64,000 nucleotides of DNA, from the NCBI GenBank assembly GCA_947041225.1, contig CAMRDM010000001.1:349-64348 (forward strand), given 5' to 3'. The position numbers are program-made. Numbering within the stretch: position 1 is the stretch's first letter; each line of letters starts with the position of its first letter. The DNA comes from an uncultured Deferribacteraceae bacterium. GTDB lineage: Bacteria > Chrysiogenota > Deferribacteres > Deferribacterales > Mucispirillaceae. Of the stretch, positions 3,001-6,000 are shown in pieces.

Positions 3001-6000
3001 ATAAAGCAGAGGGCATTTATGTAGATGCAATATCAGGCGAGGCATTATTTTTATCTAAGGATAAGTATGACTCAGGAACAGGTTGGCCATCATTTACAAA
3101 ACCAATAGATAAAAAAATGGTAACAAATATTTTGTCTAATAAAGATGGCGTAAATAAAACAGATGTAAAAAATAGCACTACTAACACACATCTTGGAAAC
3201 TTATATTACGATGGTCCTAAAGATCGTGGTGGTACAAGATATTGTCTTTATAGTTCATCATTAAGGTTTGTTCCAACATCAGAAATGGCTTCAGAAGGGT
3301 ACGGATATTTATTAAGTCAGGTATCGAAATAAATCGTTTTTAATCTCTGATATATAATAAGATAATGTATGTGCTAAGGATTTAGGTAGAGAAAATTATG
3401 AAGATAATATATGTATTAATGTTAGTGATATCGCTATCACTATTTATAGGCTGTAAACGAGATAGTAGTAGTTTTGCTAATGATATAAATAGTGAGTCGG
3501 AGTATACGGCTGTGGTGAATAAAGATATGAAATACGAAGATTTTTCTAAAGATAAATATGATACGATTATATTAGCTGGTGGATGTTTTTGGGGTGTTGA
3601 AAAATACTTTCAATATATAGATGGTGTTCTGTTTACAGATGTTGGATATGTTAATTCTAAAACGGCTAATCCAACTTATAAAGATGTTACATCAGGAACA
3701 TCTGATGCATCTGAAGGTGTTCGGATAATTTACGATCCTAAAGTAGTATCATTAGATTTTATACTTAGTATGTATGTGAAAGTTATAGATCCAACATCGC
3801 TTAATAAACAAGGTAACGATGTAGGACGTCAATATCGTACTGGTATATATTATGATAGTGATAGCGAGAAAAAAATCGCAGAAAAATTTATAAAGAAGAT
3901 TTCAAAAGATTATAAAGAGCCTATTGCGATTGAAGTTATGCCAGTTAATAATTACTATGAAGCAGAAGATTATCATCAAGATTATTTAGATAAAAATCCT
4001 AATGGATATTGTCATATAGGTAAAGCAGAGTTTGAAGATGCAAAGGAAGCTAAAGATAATATTAGTTCTAAGATCGGTGATGATGAAGTTTCAAGTGAAG
4101 CATCAAAGGAGTATATTGTGCCTAGCGATGAAGAGTTGAAATCAAAATTAACAAAATTACAATACGATGTTACTCAAAATAATAAGACAGAGCAACCGTT
4201 TAAAAATGAGTATTGGGATAATAAAGAAGAGGGTATATACGTTGATGTAACATCAGGCGAACCGTTATTTTTATCTAAGGATAAGTTTGATTCATCATCA
4301 GGTTGGCCATCATTTTCAAAACCAATTGATAAAGATTTAATAACGGGTAGTGTCGATAAAAGTTTCGGTATGGAAAGAACCGAGGTTAAGAGTAGTGGTA
4401 GCAACTCACATTTAGGACATTTATTTGATGATGGACCTAAAGATAGTGGTGGAATGCGATACTGTATAAATAGTGCATCACTTAGATTTATTCCAAAATC
4501 TAAAATGGTATCAGAGGGGTACGGATATTTATTAAATCAGGTATCGGAATAAATCTGTTTTAATTTAGTGATTGATTGTGTATAATTATAAGTAGTACGA
4601 TAATAAATTTATTGGAGGTTATTAATGGCAAGTTTTGCAAATCCATTCGCAGGCAATGTGAATCGTAAGATTACAAAAGAAGAGCTAATACAGGCTATTA
4701 GACTTGATATAGCTGCAGAGTTAGAGGCTATATATTTATATGAAGCACATATTCTTGCAACAGATGATATAGTAGTAAAAACTGTTTTAGGAGATATTAG
4801 AGATGAAGAGAAAGCTCACGTTGGTGAGTTAACAACATTACTTCGTTATCTTGATCCTAAAGAAGCAGAATTTTTTGCAGGTGGCGAGTCTGAAGTAAGA
4901 GAGATGATGGAAGATTTAGGTATTAAATCAGGAGAAATTCCAAGTAAGTTAATAGTAGCTTGTGATGAATCTCATGATGATGGACATACACATGGTGATA
5001 AATCGACATGTTGTAGTAGTGGGGAAGCAGATTGTGGTTGTGGATCTAAGGAGAAATCTGAAGAGAGTATTTCAACACATAATAAATTAACAGTGGGCAG
5101 TTTGCTTAAAAAATAGGAGGAGAGAAAATTATGGATTACCTTTCAAGAGAAGGCGCTCCTATAAAGAAAGATTTCTGGAAACAGATTGATTCAATTGTAG
5201 TGGAGACAGCTAGAAACCATCTAAATGGTAGAAAATTTTTAACAGTTTATGGACCTTTAGGTTCAGGAGCAATTAATGTTTCATACGATAAAATGGTTAG
5301 AAATGAAGAGTTTGAGAACGGTGTAGTAAAAACAACAGGAAGAACATTTGTAGAACTTCCACAGATATATGCAGATTTTAATATATTATGGAGAGATATC
5401 GAAAATCATTTTGCAACAGGTTTGCCACTTGATTTAACTTCAGTAATTGAGGCAACGCATAATATTGCTAATCTTGAAGATACGTTGATATTTTTCGGTA
5501 ACAAGTTTTTAAAAACTGATGGAATAATGAATGCTCCGGGTGTTCAAAAAGTTGCTATCTCTGATTGGAAAGAGGGTGAAAACGCATTTATGGATATTGT
5601 TAAAGGCGTTAACATGATTATCAGTAAAGGATTAATAGGTCATTTCTTTCTATGTGTTAGTCCAGAGTTATATGTTAATCTTCAAAGAATTCAAACAGGT
5701 ACAGGATTATTAGAGGTTGATAGAGTTTCTAAACAGCTAGCTGGCTTATTTAGAGTTCCTATATTAAAAGGACAACAAGCTGTTCTTATCTGTTCAGAGC
5801 CTCAGTATATTGATTTAGCAATAGGACAAGATATAGTTACAGCATATTTAGAGCAGAAAGATTTAAATCATTCATTCCGTATTATAGAGACTGTTCTTCC
5901 AAGAATTAAAAAACCAGAAGCTATAGTTGTATTTGAGAAATAGAGTTAAAATTTAATATTTTTTTTACGTTGCTTAAACGTGAATTTCTTTTTTTTATTT

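What the first reader, a model, noticed from the sequence alone, without database searches (positions are those of the whole stretch)
4625..5943. Family-1 encapsulin operon whose ferritin-like cargo carries a Cys/His-rich insert in front of the targeting peptide
Seen in the sequence:
- A 163-aa ORF has EncFtn-type ferritin-like segments (ELEAIYLYEAH, DEEKAHVGE).
- It ends in LTVGSLLKK, a good match to the family-1 cargo-loading peptide.
- The 270-aa HK97-fold shell gene follows 14 nt later with its own AGGAGG.
- Between the ferritin domain and the targeting peptide (nt 4955-5074) lies ACDESHDDGHTHGDKSTCCSSGEADCGCGSKEKSEES. It has 5 Cys (including CC and CGCG), 3 His and many acidic residues.

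Inference:
- In the characterised EncFtn cargos I recall (Rhodospirillum, Haliangium, Pyrococcus), this linker is short and Cys-free.
- A metallothionein-like or Fe-S-like thiol/imidazole cluster tethered at the inner shell face would be a new variation on iron, or other metal, handling or redox chemistry inside an encapsulin.
Basis: partly seen in the sequence, partly recalled or inferred. Interest (0 to 1): 0.7.

Follow-up and report, generated by a model that had tools for sequence, protein, structure and literature searches.

The report
Encapsulin ferritin cargo with cysteine-rich tether
A gut Deferribacteraceae bacterium has an ordinary two-gene iron-storage nanocompartment (encapsulin) operon, but the flexible tether tying the ferritin-like enzyme to the shell carries a conserved cysteine/histidine cluster that probably binds metal, something seen so far only on free-standing relatives of the enzyme.

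Summary
ORF 4625-5116 is an EncFtn/EncB-family cargo with intact di-iron ligands and a C-terminal LTVGSLLKK targeting peptide. ORF 5131-5943 is a family-1 encapsulin shell. A roughly 37-aa Cys5/His3 insert lies between the ferritin domain and the targeting peptide.

The insert is lineage-specific. It occurs only in six syntenic loci of uncultured Deferribacteraceae. Of 130 targeting-peptide-bearing EncFtn relatives sampled, 120 have no Cys in the tail.

Within the clade the linker evolves fast and has indels, yet the core S-x-CC-(G/S)0-2-GEADC-x-[C/H] is kept. The His-rich arm is dispensable. AlphaFold models the insert as disordered.

New here: free-standing EncFtn-like proteins with no targeting peptide and no shell nearby (Akkermansia among them) very often carry Cys-rich tails of 3-14 Cys. 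These follow the same pattern: CC and CxC dominate and CxxC is almost absent. The insert therefore looks like that accessory module placed inside an encapsulin.

Best reading: a metallothionein-like thiolate/imidazole metal-binding tether (about 0.5). Rubredoxin-type or ferredoxin-type sites are disfavoured by motif. Metal binding is untested. I found no description of it in the searchable literature. Verdict: a new variant of a known system, of moderate interest.

The parts
2778..3332 (+). MsrB (SelR) lipoprotein gene, a conserved upstream neighbour
   Evidence: Pfam SelR, 120.8 bits. Signal peptide with lipobox LFVGC, seen in the translation. Syntenic in the insert-bearing loci whose upstream flank is long enough to show it: SelR called in L081/L082 and L084; a matching 197-205-aa ORF in L002 and L003; L083 is cut off just upstream.
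3398..4552 (+). MsrA-MsrB fusion (PMSR+SelR) lipoprotein gene, directly upstream of the cargo gene
   Evidence: Pfam PMSR 202 bits and SelR 158 bits. The same 382-384-aa gene precedes the cargo in L002, L003, L081-L084.
4614..4618 (+). Ribosome-binding site GGAGG, 6 nt before the cargo ATG
   Evidence: Read from the sequence.
4625..5116 (+). Cargo gene: EncFtn/EncB-family encapsulated ferritin-like protein, 163 aa
   Evidence: NCBIfam EncB_fam 155.4 bits (cutoff 90). PDB best matches are P. furiosus EncFtn 5n5e (1.9e-16) and M. xanthus EncC 7s8t (1.1e-14). E32, Y39, E62 and H65 are invariant in A1 and match the published ferroxidase ligands.
4625..4924 (+). Ferritin-like (EncFtn) domain, residues 1-100
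   Evidence: AlphaFold helices 18-45, 49-76 and 78-97 with pLDDT mostly above 90. pN about 0.01 against pS 0.14-0.36 within the clade.
4961..5005 (+). Variable Cys/His/Asp-rich arm of the insert (C113-S127: CDESHDDGHTHGDKS)
   Evidence: Present in the window, L001 and L002. Reduced to CDE in L003 and absent in L083 and L084.
5009..5041 (+). Conserved Cys core of the insert (C129-C139: CCSSGEADCGC)
   Evidence: CC and GEADC are invariant in all 6 variants. The fourth Cys is replaced by His (TGT to CAT) in L003. The same CC-GE-xx-C-x-C pattern occurs in the free-standing tails of P0303, P0317 and P0330. pLDDT 33-37.
5042..5083 (+). Acidic/Lys/Ser-rich spacer between the Cys core and the targeting peptide (G140-N153)
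   Evidence: Alignment of the six variants; only the K-S-E triplet is invariant.
5084..5113 (+). C-terminal targeting (cargo-loading) peptide KLTVGSLLKK
   Evidence: L-T-V-G-S-L is invariant in the clade, and TVGSL is shared by most of the encapsulated homologues aligned. It contains the published G-S-L-K type localisation motif.
5115..5120 (+). Shell-gene ribosome-binding site AGGAGG, overlapping the cargo stop codon
   Evidence: Sequence. The 14-nt intergenic spacer is identical in all six loci except at one position, A in the window and T in the other five.
5131..5943 (+). Family-1 encapsulin shell gene, 270 aa
   Evidence: NCBIfam encap_f1 254.4 bits (cutoff 100); Pfam Linocin_M18 221 bits. 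The closest solved shells are the large ones (9fy6, 6nj8, M. xanthus EncA; 169-190 bits), against T. maritima T=1 at 65 bits.
6007..6040 (+). Intrinsic terminator closing the two-gene operon
   Evidence: A 10-bp stem (5 G-C pairs), a 4-nt loop and a T-rich tail. 3 terminator-like sites found against 0.3 expected in shuffles.

Best explanation
The locus is a standard two-gene family-1 encapsulin iron-storage operon: an EncFtn-type ferroxidase cargo, then the shell. It comes from a low-GC (32%) gut-type Deferribacteraceae bacterium.

Its special feature is a lineage-specific, intrinsically disordered insert in the tether between the ferroxidase ring and the shell-binding peptide. The insert has a selectively retained four-ligand core, CC-x(4-6)-C-x-C/H, embedded in Gly/Ser/Asp/Glu. 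In some strains it also has an extra Cys/His/Asp arm.

I propose that it is a metallothionein-like thiolate/imidazole metal-binding module of the kind that free-standing EncFtn-like proteins carry as C-terminal tails. Because it sits upstream of the targeting peptide, ten copies per EncFtn decamer would be held just under the inner shell wall. There it would capture and buffer a divalent metal entering through the pores. The most likely metal is Fe(II), handed on to the di-iron ferroxidase site. Alternatively it would trap thiophilic Zn/Cu ions that could otherwise occupy the di-iron site.

Shown: gene identities, intact ferroxidase ligands, the targeting peptide, the clade restriction of the insert, core conservation against a fast-evolving linker, predicted disorder, and the Cys spacing pattern shared with free-standing tails.

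Inferred: metal binding, which metal, and the relay or buffer role.
For: - Family identity.
- Ferroxidase ligands E32/Y39/E62/H65 are invariant and match the published ligands.
- Compositional improbability: P about 2e-5 for 5 Cys in 37 aa.
- Restricted to one clade, always in the same MsrAB-cargo-shell synteny, with MsrB upstream wherever the flank is long enough.
- The linker has pN 0.15-0.32 in most pairs (the two closest loci, L001/L002, are lower) plus indels, against domain pN about 0.01. CC and GEADC are nevertheless invariant, and the one change at the fourth Cys is to His, another metal ligand, by a two-nucleotide change.
- AlphaFold pLDDT is 33-46 over residues 108-157, consistent with a metal-dependent or disordered peptide.
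- 62 of 219 targeting-peptide-less EncFtn-family proteins have 3 or more Cys in the tail, up to 14. Their composition is poor in hydrophobic residues and rich in Asp/Glu/Gly/Ser.
- Shared spacing pattern: CC and CxC dominate (101 and 72 of 385 spacings) and CxxC is almost absent (2 of 385). The insert clade has CC 7, CxC 6 and CxxC 0.
- The same CC-GE-xx-C-x-C pattern is found in P0303, P0317 and P0330.
- Variable Cys number and tail length fit a low-specificity metal-binding peptide rather than a fixed cofactor site.
Against: - No metal-binding data exist.
- Neither Pfam (including its metallothionein families) nor any PDB chain matches the insert.
- Divergence within the clade is low (pS 0.14-0.36), and 18 of 34 ungapped linker columns are invariant. 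Conservation of three or four Cys columns is therefore only weak statistical evidence of selection.
- Cys density (5 of 37, 13.5%) is at the low end for metallothioneins.
- Free thiols next to an iron-oxidising, peroxide-generating site would be prone to oxidation.
- The resemblance to free-standing tails could be convergence of short low-complexity motifs rather than homology.
- My sample of the family is biased, because it came from lists seeded with two queries.
Confidence: 0.5

Rival explanations
1. The Cys core forms a redox-active iron centre. This could be a desulforedoxin-like Fe(Cys)4 site, which is known to use a vicinal CC pair, or an inter-chain [2Fe-2S] or [4Fe-4S] cluster between neighbouring tails of the decamer. 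It would pass electrons to or from the di-iron site or the mineral core. The cargo would then be a 'mini-rubrerythrin' (peroxidase-type chemistry), or it would give the compartment a built-in reductant for iron release. That role would be analogous to the ferredoxin co-packaged in Firmicute IMEF encapsulins or the ferric reductase EncD in Myxococcus.
For: - There are four conserved potential ligands (Cys3 plus Cys/His).
- The host lineage is anaerobic or microaerophilic, and many homologues are annotated 'rubrerythrin'.
- Encapsulated redox partners have precedent: ferredoxin as secondary cargo and the EncD ferric reductase (PMC11126975, listed).
- Rubrerythrins pair a di-iron domain with a C-terminal Fe(Cys)4 domain (PMC5114695 abstract).
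- That desulforedoxin uses a CC pair is from my own knowledge.
Against: - No CxxC motif occurs in any of the 7 insert variants, and only 2 of 385 Cys spacings in the related free-standing tails are CxxC. No tail has two CxxC knuckles.
- Cys number ranges from 3 to 14 across the tails, which is not what a defined cofactor site looks like.
- The insert is modelled as disordered.
- There is no obvious route for electrons from outside the shell.
Confidence: 0.18
2. The thiols act as a redox element rather than as metal ligands. They could be a sacrificial peroxide or radical sink next to the ferroxidase. Or they could be a disulfide switch that changes tether length or cargo mobility under oxidative stress. 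Either would fit the conserved linkage to methionine-sulfoxide-reductase genes.
For: - Synteny with MsrB and MsrA-MsrB is conserved wherever the upstream flank is present.
- EncFtn/encapsulin systems are linked to oxidative stress in the literature.
Against: - The Msr proteins carry lipoprotein signal peptides, so they act outside the cytoplasm.
- CC and CxC are poor intramolecular disulfide formers, and the classic redox-active CxxC is specifically absent.
- The Cys-to-His replacement in L003 and the accompanying His/Asp/Glu residues fit ligands better than redox thiols.
Confidence: 0.1
3. The insert has no specific function. It is a tolerated low-complexity expansion of a disordered tether, and its conservation simply reflects the young age of the clade.
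For: - Linker pN/pS is roughly 0.3 to 1 or slightly above, with several indels.
- Half of the insert (the His arm) is gained or lost between close relatives.
- Overall divergence is low, with pS up to 0.36.
- The insert is predicted to be disordered.
Against: - Cys is rare in this genome (0.87%) and absent from the tail in 120 of 130 encapsulated relatives. Five in 37 residues is not a neutral expectation.
- The indels spare the CC...GEADC block.
- There is no tandem repeat or duplicated source sequence.
- The same unusual Cys spacing pattern recurs on many distant free-standing homologues.
Confidence: 0.15

Closest known systems
EncFtn / EncB-EncC type encapsulated ferritin-like cargo with a family-1 encapsulin shell (R. 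rubrum, H. ochraceum, M. xanthus EncA/B/C, P. furiosus)
   Same: - Two-helix ferritin-like domain with E32/Y39/E62/H65 ferroxidase ligands.
- C-terminal TVGSL-type targeting peptide.
- Cargo gene immediately upstream of the shell gene.
- The shell matches encap_f1 and Linocin_M18.
   Different: - The tether carries a roughly 37-aa Cys5/His3 insert. 120 of 130 targeting-peptide-bearing relatives sampled have no Cys in the tail.
- The tail after the domain is 50-70 aa, against at most 35 aa (typically 21-35) in the insert-free close relatives.
- The shell is only about 60% identical to its nearest sampled relatives (Brachyspira), although the cargo domain is 77-80% identical to theirs.
Free-standing EncFtn-like proteins with Cys-rich C-terminal tails (P0201/P0207/P0301/P0303 group; Akkermansia and others; usually annotated 'rubrerythrin' or 'ferritin family protein')
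   Same: - The same ferritin-like domain family, near the NCBIfam EncB_fam cutoff at 88.5-95.4 bits against a cutoff of 90; five of the seven tested reach it.
- A disordered tail rich in Cys/Asp/Glu/Gly/Ser directly after the domain.
- The same Cys spacing pattern (CC and CxC, no CxxC). Some tails have the same CC-GE-xx-C-x-C pattern.
   Different: - These have no targeting peptide and no shell gene within 5-6 kb.
- Their domain is only 34-38% identical to the window protein.
- Their tails are terminal rather than internal, and often much richer in Cys (median 7, up to 14).
Metallothioneins and Cys/His-rich metal-binding tails
   Same: - Short, low-complexity and free of aromatic residues.
- CC and CxC motifs with flanking His/Asp/Glu.
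- Variable length and Cys number between relatives.
- Examples such as the HypB CxxCGC motif, the ZntA CCCDGAC motif and ArsD CC-x4-C are recalled from my own knowledge; they are leads, not tests.
   Different: - There is no sequence match to any Pfam family or PDB chain.
- Cys density is lower, at 13.5%.
- It is an internal segment of an enzyme's tether, not a free-standing protein.
Engineered encapsulins with lumenal metallothionein ('EMcapsulins', PMC10713455)
   Same: A thiolate-rich metal-binding peptide displayed on the lumenal side of an encapsulin shell (abstract seen).
   Different: That system is a synthetic fusion made as an electron-microscopy label. This one would be a natural counterpart, attached through the native cargo tether.
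Rubrerythrin (di-iron four-helix bundle plus C-terminal rubredoxin domain)
   Same: A ferritin-like di-iron domain followed by a C-terminal Cys-containing segment, in proteins of anaerobes linked to oxidative stress (PMC5114695).
   Different: - The two CxxC knuckles that define a rubredoxin domain are absent.
- The di-iron site is built across a dimer of two-helix subunits, not within one four-helix bundle.

Membership tests
Family-1 encapsulin shell | HK97-fold shell protein matching the curated family model | tested here: met
   NCBIfam encap_f1 (equivalog) 254.4 bits against cutoff 100; Pfam Linocin_M18 221.1 bits against 24.3. PDB matches to encapsulin shells down to 5e-55.
Family-1 encapsulin shell | Adjacent cargo gene whose product ends in a short targeting peptide | tested here: met
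   The cargo lies 14 nt upstream and ends in KLTVGSLLKK. TVGSL is shared by most encapsulated homologues.
Family-1 encapsulin shell | Self-assembly into an icosahedral T=1/3/4 compartment that packages the cargo | not testable with these tools
   Indirect only: sequence is closer to the T=4/T=3 shells (6nj8, 9fy6, EncA; 169-190 bits) than to T. maritima T=1 (65 bits).
EncFtn / EncB-family encapsulated ferritin | Match to the curated family model | tested here: met
   NCBIfam EncB_fam 155.4 bits against cutoff 90. Pfam EncFtn-like scores 23.2 bits, below its gathering score of 27. TIGR04535 scores 96 against 125, also below cutoff.
EncFtn / EncB-family encapsulated ferritin | Ferroxidase-centre ligands Glu32, Glu62 and His65 plus Tyr39 (R. 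rubrum numbering) | tested here: met
   E32, Y39, E62 and H65 are present with the same spacing and are invariant in 18 homologues. The ligand list is from PMC5012862.
EncFtn / EncB-family encapsulated ferritin | Annular decamer; ferroxidase activity; iron mineralisation only inside the shell | not testable with these tools
   The monomer model shows the expected three helices at high confidence. Oligomeric state and activity were not assessed.
Metallothionein-like metal-binding peptide | Cys-rich, low-complexity, no aromatic residues, CC/CxC/CxxC motifs | tested here: inconclusive
   5 Cys in 37 aa (13.5%), with CC and CxC present and no aromatic residues in the insert. But no Pfam or PDB match, and the density is lower than in classical metallothioneins.
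Metallothionein-like metal-binding peptide | Stoichiometric binding of metal ions through thiolate clusters | not testable with these tools
   Needs ICP-MS, native MS or spectroscopy.
Rubredoxin / rubrerythrin-type Fe(Cys)4 domain | Two CxxC(G) knuckles | tested here: not met
   There are no CxxC motifs in any of the 7 insert variants, and none of the 62 free-standing Cys-rich tails has two CxxC motifs.
Ferredoxin-type Fe-S cluster motif | CxxCxxC...C or Cx4Cx2C...C spacing | tested here: not met
   The Cys spacings in the clade are 0, 1 and 4-6 only, apart from the 15 residues from the first Cys (12 in L003). There is no Pfam Fer2 or Fer4 hit.

The most novel reading that the evidence does not exclude
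EncFtn-type ferritin-like domains have a widespread, undescribed partnership with metallothionein-like Cys tails. In this Deferribacteraceae lineage the module has been moved inside an encapsulin, producing a naturally thiolate-lined nanocompartment. If so, the tether would do chemistry not yet attributed to any encapsulin. It might store or detoxify a soft metal (Zn, Cu, Cd) alongside iron. It might nucleate an iron-sulfur-type mineral. Or it might form inter-chain Fe-S or Fe(Cys)4 centres that act as a built-in electron relay for iron loading or release.
Probability: 0.2. Interest if true: 0.8.

Novelty: new variant of a known kind. Interest (0 to 1): 0.55.

Why it matters
Encapsulin iron stores are usually understood as a shell plus a ferroxidase, with the tether treated as a passive string. 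A conserved thiolate/imidazole cluster on that tether would be the first natural case of an extra metal-binding or redox element built into the cargo-shell link.

It bears on open questions in the field: how Fe(II) travels from pore to ferroxidase, how competing metals such as zinc would be kept out, and how iron is released.

It also points to a large, apparently unstudied class of free-standing EncFtn-like proteins with Cys-rich tails in gut bacteria such as Akkermansia. Ring-shaped ferritin-like proteins cannot store iron on their own, so the function of that class is unknown.

In practice it offers a natural template for the metal-loaded encapsulins that are currently engineered with metallothionein fusions. 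The proposal can be tested directly by co-expression, metal analysis and Cys-to-Ser variants.

Tried and rejected
- A word-index protein search with the 59-aa insert plus targeting peptide found no candidates at all, so nothing can be concluded from it.
- Pfam (E up to 5) and PDB (E up to 10) searches with the insert found nothing.
- A JGI metagenome scan using an alignment of the six tails gave 564 pattern matches but no confirmed relative. The clade was seen only in ENA/NCBI/Logan assemblies. I ran no further search on the short core motif, because random matches would dominate.
- Rfam on the whole window gave no hits.
- There is no tandem repeat in the insert and no second copy of the core DNA in the window, so slippage or local duplication as its origin is not supported.
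- The promoter scan gave no convincing sigma-70 site upstream of the cargo: 12 sites found in the region against 8.8 expected. A perfect TATAAT at 4581-4586 is visible in the sequence, but without a properly spaced -35 element.
- Shell co-variation: the shell has 38 clade-specific fixed residues, 4 of them His. It is so diverged from its nearest sampled relatives (60% identity) that co-variation with the insert cannot be separated from phylogeny.
- Rubredoxin-type and ferredoxin-type motif readings were rejected on Cys spacing.
- Eight literature searches and four papers or reviews searched for the relevant terms gave no description of Cys-rich EncFtn linkers or tails. The library does not hold most subscription-journal papers, so absence is not proof.
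Full report
**1. What is in the sequence**

- The cargo ORF has a GGAGG 6 nt upstream of its ATG.
- The shell ORF starts 14 nt after the cargo stop. 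Its AGGAGG (5115-5120) overlaps the TAG.
- A strong intrinsic terminator follows at 6007-6030, so the two genes form a compact unit.
- The quoted 37-aa string is residues 112-148 (nt 4958-5068). It holds 5 Cys (C113, C129, C130, C137, C139) and 3 His.
- Cys makes up 0.87% of the residues in the window's 40 long ORFs. At that rate, five or more Cys in 37 residues has P about 2e-5.

**2. Identity of the two genes**

The cargo:
- It scores 155 bits on NCBIfam EncB_fam (cutoff 90). It gives sub-threshold hits on TIGR04535 and Pfam EncFtn-like.
- Its best solved relatives are P. furiosus EncFtn (5n5e, 1.9e-16) and M. xanthus EncC (7s8t, 1.1e-14).
- E32, Y39, E62 and H65 are present and invariant across 18 aligned homologues. 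These are the published ferroxidase-centre residues of R. rubrum EncFtn (PMC5012862).
- The C-terminus, KLTVGSLLKK, carries the conserved G-S-L-K type localisation motif.

The shell:
- It scores 254 bits on NCBIfam encap_f1 (cutoff 100) and 221 bits on Pfam Linocin_M18.
- Its nearest solved shells are large ones (9fy6, 9i8e, Q. thermotolerans 6nj8, M. xanthus EncA) at 169-190 bits. T. maritima T=1 scores 65 bits.
- This hints at a T=3 or T=4 iron store but does not prove it.

AlphaFold2, run on an 18-sequence alignment, models helices 18-45, 49-76 and 78-97 with pLDDT mostly above 90. Residues 108-157, which contain the insert, have pLDDT 33-46 and look disordered in the absence of metal.

**3. 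How the insert is distributed**

Among close relatives:
- Among the closest protein clusters in a 5.8-billion-protein collection, only P0001-P0005 carry a Cys-rich tail, together with P0121 and P0122 from the cluster look-up. That is 7 sequences with 4-5 Cys each.
- 108 other close relatives have no Cys after the domain. Their tails are at most 35 aa, typically 21-35, against 50-70 aa here.

Source organisms:
- The genome-collection scan places the insert-bearing loci in uncultured Deferribacteraceae MAGs (L001-L003). The insert-free relatives are Bacillota, Brachyspira, Phascolarctobacterium and others.
- The window has 31.9% GC.

Synteny:
- All six distinct variants sit in the same block: MsrA-MsrB lipoprotein, cargo, shell, with an MsrB lipoprotein further upstream wherever the flank is long enough to show it. 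The variants are the window (which matches L081 and L082), L001, L002, L003, L083 and L084.
- The 14-nt intergenic spacer is identical apart from one position.

**4. Conservation within the clade**

Codon-level comparison:

| Region | pN | pS |
|---|---|---|
| Ferritin domain | about 0.01 | 0.14-0.36 |
| Shell | 0.006-0.037 | 0.13-0.35 |
| Linker | 0.15-0.32 in most pairs | 0.12-0.55 |

- The linker's pN/pS is roughly 0.3 to 1 or slightly above, and it has several indels. The closest pair, L001/L002, has a lower linker pN.
- The His-rich arm CD[ED]SH(G)DDGHTHGDKS is present only in the window, L001 and L002.
- The block S-x-C-C-(G/S)0-2-G-E-A-D-C is invariant in all six variants.
- The next Cys, two residues on, changes only once. 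That change is to His, through a two-nucleotide substitution (TGT to CAT, in L003).
- Caveat: 18 of 34 ungapped linker columns are invariant at this shallow divergence. Conservation of the Cys columns is therefore suggestive, not statistically decisive.
- The insert is not a tandem repeat, and its core DNA has no second copy in the window.

**5. The wider family: the main new finding**

Free-standing relatives with Cys-rich tails:
- An exhaustive phmmer search of 1.84 billion 50%-identity representatives gave 1065 hits. Among the best 150, two short proteins (P0201 and P0207) have tails with 8-10 Cys.
- They belong to a sister subfamily that is 34-38% identical to the window protein and lacks the targeting peptide.
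- They are not next to a shell gene. In L085-L087 the neighbours are Glyco_hydro_3 and, where the flank is long enough, a GDSL lipase.
- Searching with P0201 showed that 72 of its 120 nearest clusters have 2 or more Cys in the tail, up to 14.
- These include an Akkermansia protein annotated 'rubrerythrin' (P0301) and P0303, whose tail is ...EADCCGEKSCGCSH. Both are stand-alone genes.
- Their domains score 88.5-95.4 bits on EncB_fam, around its cutoff of 90.

Targeting peptide against Cys content of the tail, over 349 family members with a complete domain and a short tail:

| | 0 Cys | 1-2 Cys | 3 or more Cys |
|---|---|---|---|
| With targeting peptide | 120 | 3 | 7 (all the Deferribacteraceae clade) |
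| Without targeting peptide | 123 | 34 | 62 |

Cys spacing:
- In the free-standing tails, CC accounts for 101 and CxC for 72 of 385 consecutive-Cys spacings. CxxC accounts for only 2.
- The insert clade has CC 7, CxC 6 and CxxC 0.
- Both sets are poor in hydrophobic residues and rich in Asp, Glu, Gly and Ser.
- The insert therefore looks like the same accessory module, by descent, transfer or convergence, placed upstream of a targeting peptide.
- Caveat: the sample came from lists seeded with two queries and is not an unbiased census.

**6. Mechanism**

Shown by the data:
- An intact ferroxidase cargo and a canonical targeting peptide.
- A clade-specific, disordered tether insert rich in Cys, His and acidic residues, with a conserved four-ligand core.
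- A motif pattern shared with many free-standing homologues.

Inferred:
- The C-termini of EncFtn project from the outside of the decameric ring toward the shell (PMC5012862). Ten inserts per decamer, about 50 thiols, would therefore lie between the shell wall and the ferroxidase ring.
- The most economical reading is a metallothionein-like metal-binding tether. It would capture or buffer Fe(II) on its way to the di-iron site, or sequester thiophilic ions that compete for that site.
- The variable number and spacing of Cys across the family, and the dispensable His arm, fit a low-specificity binding peptide better than a fixed cofactor site.

Rivals:
- A rubredoxin-, rubrerythrin- or ferredoxin-like centre is disfavoured by the near-total absence of CxxC. 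A desulforedoxin-like Fe(Cys)4 site that uses the CC pair, or an inter-chain cluster, cannot be excluded. Encapsulated redox partners do have precedent: ferredoxin in the Firmicute 'Geobac'/IMEF systems and the EncD ferric reductase.
- A thiol redox-switch or sacrificial role is less likely. CC and CxC are poor disulfide formers, and the neighbouring Msr proteins are exported lipoproteins.
- A neutral low-complexity expansion remains possible, given the shallow divergence. It is hard to square with the compositional improbability and the recurrent spacing pattern.

**7. Comparison with what is known, and novelty**

- The operon is a clear member of the family-1 encapsulin/EncFtn class.
- The insert matches no Pfam family or PDB chain.
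- Eight full-text searches, plus term searches within the 2024 structural review of encapsulated ferritin-like proteins, a 2025 encapsulin review, the original EncFtn structure paper and the 2016 genome survey, turned up no description of Cys-rich EncFtn linkers or tails. Many subscription-journal papers are not in the library.
- Engineered encapsulins with lumenal metallothionein exist as electron-microscopy tags (PMC10713455). This locus would be a natural counterpart.
- I rate it a new variant of a known kind, of moderate interest. The claim can be tested directly with standard biochemistry.

**8.

- The clade's shell is only about 60% identical to its nearest sampled relatives (Brachyspira), although the cargo domain is 77-80% identical to theirs.
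- The shell has 38 clade-specific fixed residues. Four of them are His (H30, H93, H110, H171) at positions where other shells rarely have His.
- That is more His than expected by my rough estimate. It cannot be separated from phylogeny, and it cannot be mapped onto the lumenal face with the tools at hand.

Noticed in passing
P0201, P0207, P0274-P0349 (proteins); loci L085-L093: A large group of free-standing EncFtn-like proteins carries C-terminal tails with 3-14 Cys. They have no targeting peptide and no shell gene nearby, are often annotated 'rubrerythrin', and include an Akkermansia protein. Examples are repeated CCKEQGE units and CDCDEECDCDEDDDCGC. CC and CxC dominate the spacing and CxxC is almost absent (2 of 385 spacings). 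I found no description of this class in the literature I could search.
   Followed up: partly
window 5131-5943 (shell residues 30, 93, 110, 171): Four of the five His in the shell protein are fixed in the insert-bearing clade but rare or absent at those positions in 75 other shells. The shell is only about 60% identical to its nearest sampled relatives, while the cargo domain is 77-80% identical. Whether these His face the lumen, the pores or the targeting-peptide pocket could not be determined.
   Followed up: partly
window 6075-13989, minus strand: Three large leucine-rich-repeat lipoprotein genes (1109, 652 and 690 aa) lie between the encapsulin operon and the SIR2 / BipA / IclR block. In relatives L002, L003 and L083 the shell gene is followed directly by that block, so this is a strain-specific array of about 8 kb. 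L081 and L082 encode the identical cargo but differ from each other here, so the region is variable.
   Followed up: partly
window 9130-9340 (N-terminal part of the 1109-aa LRR protein, minus strand): A long Gly/Asn/Asp low-complexity run (GNGDGGNDGDGGNGDGDGDGG...) follows the lipoprotein signal peptide of the largest LRR protein. On the opposite strand it produces spurious Pro/Ser-rich ORFs.
   Followed up: no
window 2778-4552: Two methionine-sulfoxide-reductase lipoprotein genes lie in tandem directly upstream of the cargo gene: MsrB alone, then an MsrA-MsrB fusion. Their signal peptides are nearly identical. The arrangement is conserved in the insert-bearing loci whose upstream flank is long enough to show it. 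This may be an oxidative-stress gene neighbourhood, but the Msr proteins are predicted to be exported.
   Followed up: partly
window 1008-2711: A 567-aa predicted lipoprotein with no Pfam match lies upstream of the Msr genes. It is syntenic with 558-580-aa ORFs in the relatives. Function unknown.
   Followed up: no
window, long ORFs outside the operon: 53 other 37-aa windows in the window's long ORFs hold 4 or more Cys (maximum 5). At least one other Cys-dense protein segment is therefore encoded here, probably an Fe-S or zinc protein. I did not locate it.
   Followed up: no
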